Source: a virus. Taken from it: 64,000 bases of DNA. Within the stretch, counting starts at the first letter, position 1. The number at the start of each line of letters is the position of its first letter. The translations under genes were made by a program, and so were the position numbers. The DNA is taken from IMG/VR virus record IMGVR_UViG_3300040801_001492, positions 1 through 64,000 of that record; one strand, given 5' to 3'. The notes beneath the pieces were generated by a model, which was not told the DNA's origin, searched no databases, and saw nothing but the letters and a program-made list of their open reading frames with translations. Positions 27,188-29,848 of this stretch are shown piece by piece.

Positions 27188-27445
27188 TTATAACCAATTT
27201 ATACTTGTTTCTTTACTGTTACTATCTTCATAAATAAATACTCTATATCCATCTATTACAGCTGTAAGATAACTACGTACCTTATCTATAGTAGGTAACT
27301 TAGCTTTTACATTAAACGAATAAGTATCATTAAAAGATTCAAAGTCCTTCTTCAGCTGCTTATAGTCTTCTGACGTACAAATAACCATTACTGTATGGTT
27401 ACTCTTAGTATCTGTATGAATAAATTCTTTTATTTTATCTAACAT
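27188..27445 (-). CDS. Hypothetical protein
   Basis: ORF track; directly downstream of a promoter. Confidence 0.65.
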   Translation of the reverse strand: MLDKIKEFIHTDTKSNHTVMVICTSEDYKQLKKDFESFNDTYSFNVKAKLPTIDKVRSYLTAVIDGYRVFIYEDSNSKETSINWL

Positions 27446-27466
27446 ACTGTAAATCTTTAATTAATA

Positions 27467-27498
27467 CAAAGGTAAACATAATAATCGAGAAAACCAAA
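27467..27498 (-). promoter_or_regulatory. Bacteroidota-type promoter
   Basis: TTTG-N20-TACCTTTG with upstream A-tracts. Confidence 0.85.
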
Positions 27499-27527
27499 TT
27501 TTTTAACAACTTTTTTTAATTTTTTTA

Positions 27528-27560
27528 TAAAAAAGAACCCCAGGATCGTAACCCTGGGGT
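27528..27560 (-). terminator. Intrinsic terminator after tRNA-Gln
   Basis: ACCCCAGG-N8-CCTGGGGT-TCTTTTTT on the minus strand. Confidence 0.85.
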
Positions 27561-27592
27561 GGTCATAGACTACTAATCTATGAGGGGGTATG

Positions 27593-27663
27593 TTGCCTTA
27601 TCAGGATTCGAACCTAAAACTCCAGATTCAAAGTCTGGTGTGTTGCCATTACACTATAAGGCA
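27593..27663 (-). tRNA. tRNA-Gln(TTG)
   Basis: Acceptor TGCCTTA/TAAGGCA; anticodon arm CCAGA-CTTTGAA-TCTGG; GGTTCGAATCC. Confidence 0.92.
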
Positions 27664-27668
27664 GTTTG

Positions 27669-27736
27669 AGCCGGTGAGGAGAGTCGAACTCCTGTCACAT
27701 CCTTACAAGGGATGCTCTTAGACCATTTACACCGGC
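27669..27736 (-). tRNA. tRNA-Thr(TGT) with truncated or unpaired D-arm (68 nt)
   Basis: Acceptor GCCGGTG/CACCGGC; CATCC-CTTGTAA-GGATG; AGGAG-TTCGACT-CTCCT; only 13 nt in the D region. Confidence 0.75.
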
Positions 27737-27738
27737 AT

Positions 27739-27775
27739 AAAAAAAGTGGCCCCACCAGAACGGCAGTAGCCACTT
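27739..27775 (-). terminator. Intrinsic terminator closing the putative large ncRNA
   Basis: AAGTGGC...GCCAC-TTTTTTT. Confidence 0.8.
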
Positions 27776-28127
27776 GTATCTAAGGGGAAGGAATCAACAC
27801 AGTAATACCTTTTTATTATATTAATACTAATAATACTAATAACCTAATCTTTAATATATAATCTAATCCCTAGGACTCTCACCTAACCTACAGTTTTACA
27901 TCATGTTAGATTTTAGAATATCACTTGTCATAGTTAGTCTTTCACGCCCCTACCTTTCGGTACTTTTCGATTAGCTTTCCCTTAACGCTGTCCTTCGTAG
28001 TAATCCCTATAACTTGATCAATTCCTTTTGAGACTGAGAGGACTTTATCCCCTCATGCAGCCTGTCGCTACTTTTTGCATTGGTGCTACCAGGCGACTGT
28101 TATATTTAGACACTATAACTCTCAATT
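27739..28127 (-). ncRNA. Putative ~390-nt structured non-coding RNA of unknown family
   Basis: Own promoter and terminator, no convincing ORF, multiple nested helices, a GAAA tetraloop, a T-loop-like hairpin and long-range pairings. Confidence 0.7.
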
Positions 28128-28131
28128 TTCA

Positions 28132-28163
28132 CAAAGATAAAAATAATAATTGACATTTCCAAA
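28132..28163 (-). promoter_or_regulatory. Bacteroidota-type promoter for the ncRNA/tRNA island
   Basis: TTTG-N20-TATCTTTG with upstream A-tracts. Confidence 0.85.
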
Positions 28164-28213
28164 TTTTTTAGCAACTTTTTTATGTATAAAAATCTTAGGT
28201 TTCCCCAGAAAAT

Positions 28214-28933
28214 TTAAAATAACTGTCCCTGAGACTGTTGTGCCTGTATACGATCATTGCACTGCTTAGCATAATTAGCACTAATCTCACTTCCAACCCA
28301 GTTTCTATCTAAAATCATAGCTGCTAAAGCTGTTGTTCCACTACCCATAAACGGATCATACACCAATTCTCCTGCTCTACTAAAGTTCTTTACAAAGAAT
28401 CCAGGTATATTAAGTGGAAATATTGCTCCATGACCTTCTATCTTATTTCTAAGCTTAGTATTTTTACCTTCCCTAATAACATTACTCAAACTACCTCTTC
28501 TAAAATTACCTTTATCAAAATATCTCTTATCAGCCCCATTCTTAGCAAAAACTAATATAAATTCAAACTGACTATTCAATACCTTATCTGATATAGCAGG
28601 CTCAGCATGTATCTTATCCCATATAAGCACCTCCTTAAGGTTCTTACTAAAATACCCTATCAGCTTCCATAAAGCCTCCTTATTGCCTGATACCATCTGT
28701 ACATTATAAAATACATAGTTCTTAGTAACCCTCATCATCTCCTGTATAATATTCTTCTGCCAGACAAAATAATCATTCTGATCTAAACTATCCTTATATA
28801 CCCCATCATACTTATATATCCTATCTGTACTAAGATTATATGGCGGTGATGTAATAGTTATATCAACGAAATTATTACTCATCTTCTGCATAGTCTCCAT
28901 ACAGTCTTCTACATACAATTTATTAATCTCCAT
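28214..28933 (-). CDS. Orphan DNA methyltransferase, beta class (N4-C/N6-A)
   Basis: TSPPY catalytic motif precedes the DPFMGSGTT SAM-binding motif. Confidence 0.92.
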   Translation of the reverse strand: MEINKLYVEDCMETMQKMSNNFVDITITSPPYNLSTDRIYKYDGVYKDSLDQNDYFVWQKNIIQEMMRVTKNYVFYNVQMVSGNKEALWKLIGYFSKNLKEVLIWDKIHAEPAISDKVLNSQFEFILVFAKNGADKRYFDKGNFRRGSLSNVIREGKNTKLRNKIEGHGAIFPLNIPGFFVKNFSRAGELVYDPFMGSGTTALAAMILDRNWVGSEISANYAKQCNDRIQAQQSQGQLF

Positions 28934-29756: not shown

Positions 29757-29779
29757 ATATACAAATTTTAATTATACCC

Positions 29780-29811
29780 CAAAGATAAGTATAATTTTTG
29801 TAACCACCAAA
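29780..29811 (-). promoter_or_regulatory. Bacteroidota-type promoter
   Basis: TTTG-N20-TATCTTTG. Confidence 0.85.
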
Positions 29812-29848
29812 TATTTTGACACTTTTTTTCAAAAAAATAAGGAGAATT

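What the first reader, a model, noticed from the sequence alone, without database searches (positions are those of the whole stretch)
27739..28127. Large, apparently pseudoknotted non-coding RNA with its own promoter and terminator, upstream of the tRNAs
Seen (minus strand, manual folding): ~390 nt with no convincing ORF between a consensus promoter (28132-28163) and a U-tailed terminator (27739-27775). Domain 1 is closed by UUGAGA(28125-20)/UCUCAA(28033-28) and holds three hairpins: GUUAUA/UAUAAC, GUCGC/GCGAC and UGAGGGGA/UCCUCUCA. Domain 2 is closed directly next to it by AAGGAAUUGA(28027-18)/UUGAUUCCUU(27797-88), extended by AGUUAUA/UAUUACU. It contains GAUUA/UAAUC, UACC-GAAA-GGUA, AAUCUAA/UUAGAUU and a T-loop-like UAGG-UGAGAGU-CCUA. 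The first hairpin loop GUGUCUAA(28113-06) is complementary to UUAGAUAC(27783-76) just before the terminator, an 8-bp end-to-end pseudoknot. Established: phage tRNA islands host large ncRNAs of unknown function (GOLLD, ROOL); this one is shorter and I do not recognise it as tmRNA, RNase P RNA or an intron. Inference: a possibly new phage ncRNA class (ribozyme, scaffold, decoy or replication RNA). This is the best candidate for a novel system in the window.
Basis: partly seen in the sequence, partly recalled or inferred. Interest (0 to 1): 0.88.

Follow-up and report, generated by a model that had tools for sequence, protein, structure and literature searches.

The report
Orphan noncoding RNA before phage tRNAs
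A crAss-like phage has a promoter-driven, protein-free stretch of about 385 bases ending in a terminator just before two tRNA genes; it is probably a real non-coding transcript, but the elaborate fold proposed for it is not supported and no relative of it could be found.

Summary
The sequence features are real. The 389 nt are ORF-free under three genetic codes. The promoter is a genuine crAss-type tripartite middle promoter, with three copies in the window and copies in relatives. A strong hairpin-U8 terminator abuts tRNA-Thr*. No Rfam family matches.

The proposed two-domain pseudoknotted fold is not supported:
- The full length folds no better than shuffles (z -0.64).
- "Domain 2" folds worse than shuffles (z +1.0).
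- Only the first 100 nt stand out (z about -3.7), a value that 1.7% of random windows of this genome also reach.

No homologue turned up in IMG/VR, JGI metagenomes, GTDB genomes, INPHARED phages or 20 whole related phage records. Searches used BLAST, nhmmer and covariance models, so covariation cannot be tested. One relative with an 80%-identical methyltransferase lacks the element at that position.

Related crAss-like phages carry two other structured RNA families of about 300 nt, with covariation support and no Rfam entry, starting at the same promoter type in the same genome zone. Neither model hits this window. Unchecked earlier notes of this scan report similar promoter-driven RNAs in other crAss-like phages; none shares sequence with this one.

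Verdict: a probable lineage-specific ncRNA or leader of a tRNA transcription unit, with fold and function unproven.

The parts
28130..28174 (-). Tripartite crAss-type middle promoter: A-rich TTGCTAAAAAA block, TTTGG (-33) and TATCTTTG (-7). The inferred start site is about 28128-28124.
   Evidence: an 81%-identical 58-nt copy lies at 27459-27516 and a third copy at 29822-29778. The same motif occurs in relatives L088, L015, L059, L021, L066 and L085. Drobysheva et al. report such a motif, read by host RNAP and often placed upstream of tRNA genes.
28028..28127 (-). 5' domain ('domain 1'): closing helix UUGAGA/UCUCAA around hairpins GUUAUA/UAUAAC, GUCGC/GCGAC (ambiguous) and UGAGGGGA/UCCUCUCA.
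   Evidence: MFE -31.3 against -19.8 +/- 3.2 kcal/mol, z -3.66, 0 of 200 shuffles. z -3.86 on this strand against -1.92 on the other. GC 43%. Background rate of such z-scores is 1.7%.
27870..28027 (-). Purine-rich, GC-elevated middle part (39% GC) with several GAAA-type loops. No fold better than chance.
   Evidence: z +0.3 to +1.0; other intergenic stretches have 22-30% GC.
27798..27869 (-). AT-rich low-complexity tail (18% GC).
   Evidence: It is the only part that gives spurious BLAST and Rfam sRNA-like matches.
27739..27775 (-). Intrinsic terminator: 13-bp stem with one bulge, then U8.
   Evidence: -16.8 kcal/mol; z -2.1. No alternative partner exists for its 5' arm, and blocking the hairpin costs 12.5 kcal/mol.
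27669..27736 (-). tRNA-Thr(UGU) lacking the 5' strand of the D stem. It starts 2 nt after the U-tract and has no promoter of its own.
   Evidence: Rfam tRNA 46 bits. ARAGORN finds it only at relaxed thresholds.
27592..27663 (-). tRNA-Gln(UUG), the last gene of the unit.
   Evidence: 70.9 bits.
27537..27560 (-). Second terminator, closing the RNA-tRNA unit. It is followed by the next promoter copy (27509-27465) and an 85-aa ORF.

Best explanation
The stretch is the non-coding first ~385 nt of a middle-phase transcription unit of an uncultured, environmental crAss-like phage (Crassvirales).

Proposed sequence of events:
1. Host RNA polymerase starts at a conserved tripartite crAss-type promoter (28174-28130).
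2. It makes an ORF-free RNA whose first ~100 nt form a stable multi-hairpin domain that sequesters the 5' end.
3. Most transcripts stop at a strong hairpin-U8 terminator (27775-27739).
4. Read-through transcripts carry tRNA-Thr* and tRNA-Gln, which have no promoter of their own.
5. RNase P cutting at the tRNA 5' end, 2 nt past the U-tract, would release the same ~385-nt RNA with the hairpin as a protective 3' end.

I read it as a lineage-specific, fast-evolving non-coding RNA gene. It is of the same general kind as the structured RNAs that related crAss-like phages keep at this promoter type. It most likely acts in trans, by binding or titrating a protein, rather than as a switch.

Shown: the promoter, the lack of an ORF, the terminator, the tRNA adjacency, the above-chance fold of the 5' domain, the raised GC content and the absence from Rfam.
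Inferred: that it is transcribed, the read-through and RNase P processing, its stability, and any function.
For: - Promoter: identity and conservation. Published evidence shows that this motif class is used by host RNAP in crAss-like phages and precedes tRNA genes in 12 of 14 phages.
- No ORF under three codes, and no protein-level similarity to 1 Mb of relatives' DNA.
- Strong terminator abutting a promoter-less tRNA pair.
- L084/L086 show the same layout, promoter - ~350 nt - hairpin+U - tRNA-Gln, so hairpin-tRNA junctions recur in this clade.
- The 5' 258 nt have 40% GC, against 22-30% for other ORF-free stretches. That is the top 1.4% of windows in the 20-64 kb part.
- The 5' domain has z about -3.7 and is strand-specific.
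- Relatives carry two covariation-supported ~300-nt RNA families starting at the start site of the same promoter type, 5.5-8.7 kb upstream of TerL. This RNA lies 6.6 kb upstream.
Against: - No homologue anywhere, so there is no covariation and no evidence of conservation.
- A relative with an 80%-identical methyltransferase has a protein gene where this RNA sits.
- Whole-molecule folding is at chance level and 250 of the 389 nt show no structural signal.
- The z-score of the 5' domain is reached by 1.7% of random windows.
- Models of the relatives' RNA families do not match it.
- No expression data could be obtained.
Confidence: 0.45

Rival explanations
1. It is a functionless spacer or long leader. 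A rearrangement (promoter duplication plus insertion of a terminator-tRNA cassette or a methyltransferase cassette) left ~350 nt of transcribed junk between a promoter copy and the tRNAs. The hairpins are chance or left-overs.
For: - The two promoters at 28174 and 27509 are 81%-identical duplicates.
- The methyltransferase is a mobile cassette with a different neighbourhood in L088.
- The region upstream of TerL shares no genes with relatives.
- Whole-length folding is at chance level, and there are no homologues.
Against: - GC is 10-18 points above other ORF-free stretches of this AT-rich genome.
- The 5' domain has z -3.7 and is strand-specific.
- Gene-dense phages rarely keep 390 nt of junk: this window has only four ORF-free gaps of 250 nt or more.
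Confidence: 0.28
2. It is a cis-acting attenuator or leader that sets or regulates expression of the downstream tRNAs: a riboswitch-like element or protein-dependent antitermination at the hairpin-U8.
For: - The layout is promoter - long leader - terminator - promoter-less genes.
- In fam1 of the relatives, the structured RNA is a 5' UTR placed directly before a small gene.
Against: - No antiterminator exists. With the 3' arm blocked, the 5' arm stays unpaired and 12.5 kcal/mol are lost.
- The structured part lies 250 nt away from the terminator.
- No known riboswitch family matches.
Confidence: 0.1
3. It is a decayed remnant of former genes, either degenerate tRNA genes of a once larger array or a small protein gene like the one at this position in L084.
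For: - Relatives have arrays of up to 21 tRNAs.
- The adjacent tRNA-Thr is itself damaged.
- ARAGORN at a 70% threshold draws a poor tRNA-like shape at 27862-27937.
- L084 has a 98-aa ORF in the equivalent slot.
Against: - No tRNA model hit at E<=10 inside the stretch.
- No nhmmer or tblastx similarity to relatives' tRNA arrays or ORFs.
- Stop codons of all three kinds occur in every frame.
Confidence: 0.07
4. One reading: a ~390-nt two-domain RNA locked end to end by an 8-bp pseudoknot, possibly a ribozyme or scaffold.
For: All the named complementary segments exist, and the 8-bp end-to-end pairing has probability 0.4-0.6 in the ensemble.
Against: - Domain 2 has z +1.0 and its closing helix has p about 0.2.
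- GUUAUA occurs twice, so alternative pairings compete.
- No covariation is possible, and no ribozyme family matches.
Confidence: 0.05

Closest known systems
Two structured RNA families found here in related crAss-like phages. fam1: e.g. L049:2897-3203, with L063, L050, L042, L038, L036. fam2: e.g. L040:1317-1668, with L035, L060, L031, L085.
   Same: All are ORF-free, 300-350 nt and absent from Rfam. They begin at the start site of the same tripartite promoter, lie on the TerL-sense strand 5.5-8.7 kb upstream of TerL, and have raised GC.
   Different: fam1 and fam2 have covariation support: 19 and 12 pairs with double changes, 0 of 500 shuffles reaching these values. The window RNA has none. 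Their HMMs and covariance models do not match it; the best hit is 9.7 bits, for a closing stem only. fam1 is a 5' UTR of a small membrane-protein gene and is not tRNA-linked.
Long non-coding RNAs of Cellulophaga phage phi14:2 (g004-g005 and g005-g006 intergenic regions; Drobysheva et al., bioRxiv 10.1101/2020.03.07.982082)
   Same: Both are non-coding transcripts of a marine crAss-like phage whose function is unknown.
   Different: The phi14:2 RNAs are early, rightward transcripts at the start of the early arm, and the paper found no common promoter motif for early transcripts. There is no sequence or model similarity. The window RNA sits behind a middle-type promoter in the structural arm.
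GOLLD (RF01998) and ROOL (RF03087) large RNAs
   Same: Phage-associated and often next to tRNA genes (my own knowledge), with unknown function.
   Different: There is no covariance-model match, even at E<=10. The window RNA is about half their size and has no demonstrated conserved fold.
Phage T4 stable RNAs C and D in the tRNA gene cluster (my own knowledge; not checked in a paper here)
   Same: Small non-coding RNAs of unknown function, co-transcribed with phage tRNAs and released by tRNA-processing enzymes.
   Different: The T4 RNAs are shorter, at about 120-140 nt. There is no sequence relation, and the host and phage family differ.

Membership tests
Any Rfam 15 family (incl. tmRNA, RNase P RNA, group I/II introns, riboswitches, small ribozymes, GOLLD, ROOL, HEARO, raiA, 6S) | Covariance-model score at or above the family's gathering threshold | tested here: not met
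   Only tRNAs pass. Inside the stretch the best hit is RprA at 26.5 bits against a gathering score of 70; it reflects only the AT-rich tail plus the terminator.
GOLLD / ROOL-like large phage RNAs | Located beside tRNA genes in a phage or prophage | tested here: met
   tRNA-Thr* begins 2 nt after the U-tract. The genome is a crAss-like phage.
fam1 RNA of related crAss-like phages (model R2) | Match to the covariation-supported 3' domain model | tested here: not met
   Best hit 9.7 bits at 27855-27923(-), closing stem only. nhmmer profile gives no hit.
fam2 RNA of related crAss-like phages (model R3) | Match to the covariation-supported model | tested here: not met
   Nothing above 6 bits in 27400-28400. 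Iterated nhmmer does not reach the window.
fam1/fam2-type promoter-proximal RNAs (functional kind, not homology) | ORF-free RNA starting at the start site of the tripartite crAss middle-type promoter, upstream of the TerL block | tested here: met
Stand-alone bacterial/phage sRNA gene | Own promoter, no ORF, intrinsic terminator | tested here: met
Conserved structured RNA (general) | Fold more stable than dinucleotide shuffles | tested here: inconclusive
   Whole molecule z -0.64. 5' 100 nt z -3.7. Remainder z +1.0. Genome background 1.7% at z <= -3.7.
Conserved structured RNA (general) | Compensatory base changes among homologues | not testable with these tools
Riboswitch / transcription attenuator | Mutually exclusive terminator and antiterminator pairings | tested here: not met
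   The 5' arm of the terminator finds no alternative partner; ddG is 12.5 kcal/mol.
tRNA or tRNA-like remnant | Cloverleaf recognised by the tRNA model or ARAGORN | tested here: not met
   Only a poor shape appears, at a 70% ARAGORN threshold.

The most novel reading that the evidence does not exclude
The window RNA is the local, rapidly diverged representative of one superfamily of large structured RNAs that crAss-like phages place at the start site of their middle promoters. fam1, fam2 and the RNAs noted elsewhere in this scan would be other branches. Such a superfamily would be a widespread, uncatalogued RNA with a common, still unknown role in the middle phase of infection. Here it would be fused to the tRNA unit, so that tRNA processing makes its 3' end.
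Probability: 0.2. Interest if true: 0.7.

Novelty: new member of a known kind. Interest (0 to 1): 0.35.

Why it matters
Taken alone, this is one more orphan non-coding transcript in an uncultured phage. It cannot be tested at the bench and no comparative test is possible yet, so it matters little.

Its context matters more. Environmental crAss-like phages repeatedly keep large RNAs without an Rfam family directly behind their conserved middle promoter, and two such families are shown here with covariation. If this RNA belongs to that set, the set evolves so fast that sequence and covariance models miss members. Surveys of phage RNAs would then under-count them.

The hairpin-tRNA junction also suggests a simple way for phages to make defined 3' ends for non-coding RNAs, using the host's RNase P.

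Tried and rejected
**Homologue searches, all negative**
- blastn 'distant' against 50,697 phage records.
- nhmmer against 1.0 and then 1.6 Mb of loci from relatives, found through TerL, MCP, methyltransferase, RusA and deoxyribosyltransferase.
- BLAST against 20 whole related records. Only AT-rich low-complexity hits appeared.
- Single-sequence covariance model of the 5' domain (R1) against 21 records and 68 loci.
- Exact 18-20-mers in IMG/VR and GTDB genomes. The nine hits do not extend beyond the seed.
- Smith-Waterman against all ORF-free gaps of relatives, which scored at the shuffled level.
- This scan's own index by sequence and by place.

**Readings considered and rejected**
- Coding: six-frame translation, TAG=Q and TGA=W codes, and tblastx against relatives.
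- Decayed tRNA: relaxed ARAGORN.
- Antiterminator.
- Trans-antisense: a 23-nt, 83% complementarity between 27889-27911 and the start region of the 85-aa ORF. That ORF ranks only 33rd of 126 start regions by duplex energy, so I rejected it.
- Relation to the phi14:2 lncRNA region.
- Membership in fam1 or fam2.

**Tools unavailable**
The contigs of the nearest TerL relatives, such as P0002 at 80% identity, could not be fetched.

Full report
**Context**

The window is the first 64 kb of a 101,445-bp IMG/VR virus record rated 99% complete. Its major capsid protein, portal and an intein-bearing large terminase match crAss-like families. The capsid protein is about 35% identical to those of uncultured gut crAss-like phages, Cellulophaga phage phi14:2 and Bacteroides crAss phages. 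It is therefore an environmental member of Crassvirales with 32% GC.

The candidate lies on the minus strand in the structural arm, 6.6 kb upstream of the terminase gene. A DNA methyltransferase gene (28214-28933) lies on one side. On the other side are tRNA-Thr* (27669-27736), tRNA-Gln (27592-27663) and a terminator (27537-27560).

**Checking the observation**

- *No ORF.* The 389 nt hold no ORF worth the name in any frame. Reading TAG as Gln or TGA as Trp does not change this. tblastx against 1 Mb of DNA from relatives finds nothing.
  - The 45-nt element at 28174-28130 has an A-rich TTGCTAAAAAA block, then TTTGG, then TATCTTTG.
  - It has an 81%-identical copy at 27509-27465 and a looser one at 29822-29778.
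  - The same three-block motif sits in non-coding DNA of at least six related phages.
  - Drobysheva et al. describe an 'extended tripartite motif' upstream of middle genes of phi14:2. Purified sigma-70 holoenzyme transcribed DNA fragments bearing such promoters in vitro, starting at the same 5' ends as the RNAs of infected cells, and the authors conclude that host RNAP transcribes the middle and late genes. The motif is conserved in other crAss-like phages and stands upstream of a tRNA gene in 12 of 14 phages.
- *Terminator.* The terminator at 27775-27739 has a 13-bp stem (-16.8 kcal/mol) followed by eight U.

**Is the fold more than chance?**

- For the whole molecule, no. The MFE is -91.4 kcal/mol against -87.6 +/- 5.9 for dinucleotide shuffles (z -0.64).
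- The 252 nt of 'domain 2' fold worse than shuffles (z +1.0).
- Ensemble probabilities of the two domain-closing helices are 0.2-0.3.
- The supposed pseudoknot helix is used by the MFE as an ordinary closing helix, at the expense of hairpin 1. This works because GUUAUA occurs twice and offers an alternative partner.
- Only the first 100 nt (28028-28127) stand out. They give z -3.7 to -3.9, no shuffle out of 200 folds as well, and the signal is weaker on the opposite strand.
- I calibrated that value on 418 random 100-nt windows of the same genome. Seven (1.7%) reach z <= -3.7.
- A second intrinsic hint is composition. The 5' 258 nt have 40% GC. Other ORF-free stretches of the window have 22-30%, and the tRNAs have 42-53%.

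**Known families**

Rfam 15 gives nothing at gathering thresholds. Nothing meaningful appears at E<=10 either, even when only the 396 nt are searched with lax filters. ARAGORN finds no tmRNA, and it finds a tRNA-like shape only at a 70% threshold.

**Search for relatives**

Every route was negative.
- Routes tried: blastn against INPHARED phages; nhmmer against up to 1.6 Mb of loci collected through five different neighbouring or hallmark proteins; BLAST over 20 whole related records, five of them near-complete; a covariance model of the 5' domain; and exact words in IMG/VR and in 185,579 GTDB genomes.
- The terminase search shows why. The nearest terminase in 5.8 billion proteins is 80% identical, and the next are 68% or lower.
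- The one close neighbour I could read is a 1,955-bp metagenome contig whose methyltransferase is 80% identical. It loses all similarity at the stop codon and continues with a protein gene. Upstream it carries the same promoter motif in front of the methyltransferase.
- So the methyltransferase is a mobile cassette, and that contig says little about the RNA beyond showing that it is not tied to that gene.
- Covariation, the test that would settle the matter, cannot be done with the data at hand.

**How the unit probably works**

- The two tRNAs have no promoter of their own. No -33/-7 motif lies in the last 150 nt of the RNA, and tRNA-Thr* begins 2 nt after the U-tract. They must therefore be made by read-through from the promoter at 28174.
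- A related phage (L084/L086) has the same layout: promoter, about 350 nt, a hairpin with a U-run, then tRNA-Gln at once. There the 350 nt encode a 98-aa membrane protein.
- I infer that hairpin-tRNA junctions are a design of this clade. Termination and RNase P cleavage at the tRNA 5' end both leave the upstream RNA with a 3' hairpin that protects it.
- I tested the riboswitch-like alternative. With the 3' arm of the terminator blocked, the 5' arm stays unpaired and the molecule loses 12.5 kcal/mol, so there is no antiterminator.
- A 23-nt complementarity to the start region of the next gene is not exceptional. That start region ranks 33rd of 126.

**An unexpected result from the relatives**

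- Comparing all ORF-free gaps of the terminase-centred loci revealed two conserved non-coding families.
- fam1 has eight loci and fam2 has five or six loci.
- Both begin right after the -7 box of the same tripartite promoter and lie on the terminase-sense strand, 5.5-8.7 kb upstream of the terminase gene. Both are about 300-350 nt long and have no Rfam match.
- Both have clear covariation.
  - In the fam1 3' domain, 95.8% of cells are paired, and 19 of 45 pairs change on both sides, against 8.7 +/- 2.0 in shuffles (0 of 500). Slid controls give 1-4.
  - In fam2, 89.9% of cells are paired, with 12 of 34 such pairs against 5.5 +/- 1.7 (0 of 500).
- fam1 is followed directly by a small membrane-protein gene. 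One fam2 member ends in a terminator.
- Each family is confined to a sub-lineage. A remote fam2 member scores only 28 bits, which shows that these RNAs diverge fast.
- Neither their HMMs, iterated nhmmer nor their covariance models (R2, R3) hit the window or the rest of its genome. With filters off, the best hit in 27400-28400 is 9.7 bits for a closing stem alone.
- Earlier notes of this scan, which are unchecked AI notes, also report promoter-driven structured RNAs in other crAss-like phages, some heading tRNA clusters. None shares sequence words with this one.

**Verdict**

The stretch is most likely a real non-coding transcript: a lineage-specific RNA made from a crAss middle-type promoter and joined to a small tRNA unit. 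I give this about 45%. The main rival, at about 28%, is a functionless leader left by rearrangement, given the duplicated promoter and the mobile methyltransferase.

Only the first 100 nt look structured, and modestly so. The RNA belongs to no described family, but with a single sequence it cannot be called a new class.

Noticed in passing
L049:2897-3203, L048:2897-3203, L063:2431-2736, L050:2527-2847, L042:1762-2075, L038:3576-3882, L036/L037:3578-3889: fam1 is a ~305-nt conserved ORF-free RNA in related crAss-like phages. It starts at the start site of the tripartite promoter and is followed directly by a ~70-aa membrane-protein ORF. Covariation is strong (19 of 45 pairs with double changes; 0 of 500 shuffles) and no Rfam family matches. 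It is a candidate new structured 5' leader or ncRNA.
   Followed up: partly
L035:1540-1900, L060:1379-1738, L040:1317-1668, L031:933-1252, L085:1436-1758; remote: L074:2402-2589, G008:55516-55716: fam2 is a second, unrelated ~320-350-nt structured RNA behind the same promoter type. It has 12 of 34 pairs with double changes (0 of 500 shuffles) and no Rfam match. The L040 member ends in a terminator. Remote members score only about 28 bits, which shows rapid divergence.
   Followed up: partly
window 29778-29822, 28130-28174, 27465-27509 (all minus strand): There are three copies of a tripartite promoter (A-rich TTGnTAAAA block, TTTGG, TAnnTTTG). The last two are 81% identical over 58 nt. The motif is shared with relatives L088, L015, L059, L021, L066 and L085, and fits the crAss-like middle promoter of Drobysheva et al.
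   Followed up: yes
L084:4500-4960 (the same in L086): The layout is promoter, 98-aa membrane-protein ORF, short hairpin plus U-run overlapping the stop codon, then tRNA-Gln at once. This is the architecture of the window's unit, but with a coding insert. It suggests that hairpin-tRNA junctions are a recurrent design.
   Followed up: partly
window 27669-27736 (-): tRNA-Thr(UGU) lacks the 5' strand of the D stem. Rfam scores it 46 bits and ARAGORN finds it only at relaxed thresholds. It may be a pseudogene or an unusual tRNA, and it depends on read-through of the upstream terminator.
   Followed up: partly
L088:1-1955 (Ga0307433_1018254): The methyltransferase, 80% identical to window 28214-28933, sits in a wholly different neighbourhood with its own copy of the tripartite promoter. 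The gene therefore behaves as a mobile cassette among these phages.
   Followed up: partly
window 28046-28056 and 27580-27590 (minus-strand RNA): AUGAGGGGAUA in the 5' domain is complementary to UACCCCCUCAU, which lies just after tRNA-Gln (10 of 11 pairs, 8 in a row). This could be a leader-trailer stem of the read-through precursor, or chance. I ran no significance test beyond noting that about six perfect 8-mers are expected in 900 nt.
   Followed up: no
window 27889-27911 vs 27437-27459: A 23-nt segment of the RNA is 83% complementary to the start-codon region of the next gene (85-aa ORF). It is not above background: that start region ranks 33rd of 126 by duplex energy.
   Followed up: yes
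L017:2089-3083: This is a ~1-kb ORF-free divergence zone between the two genome arms in one of the nearer relatives (TerL 62%). It corresponds to window 29.6-31.2 kb and is unrelated to the candidate RNA.
   Followed up: no
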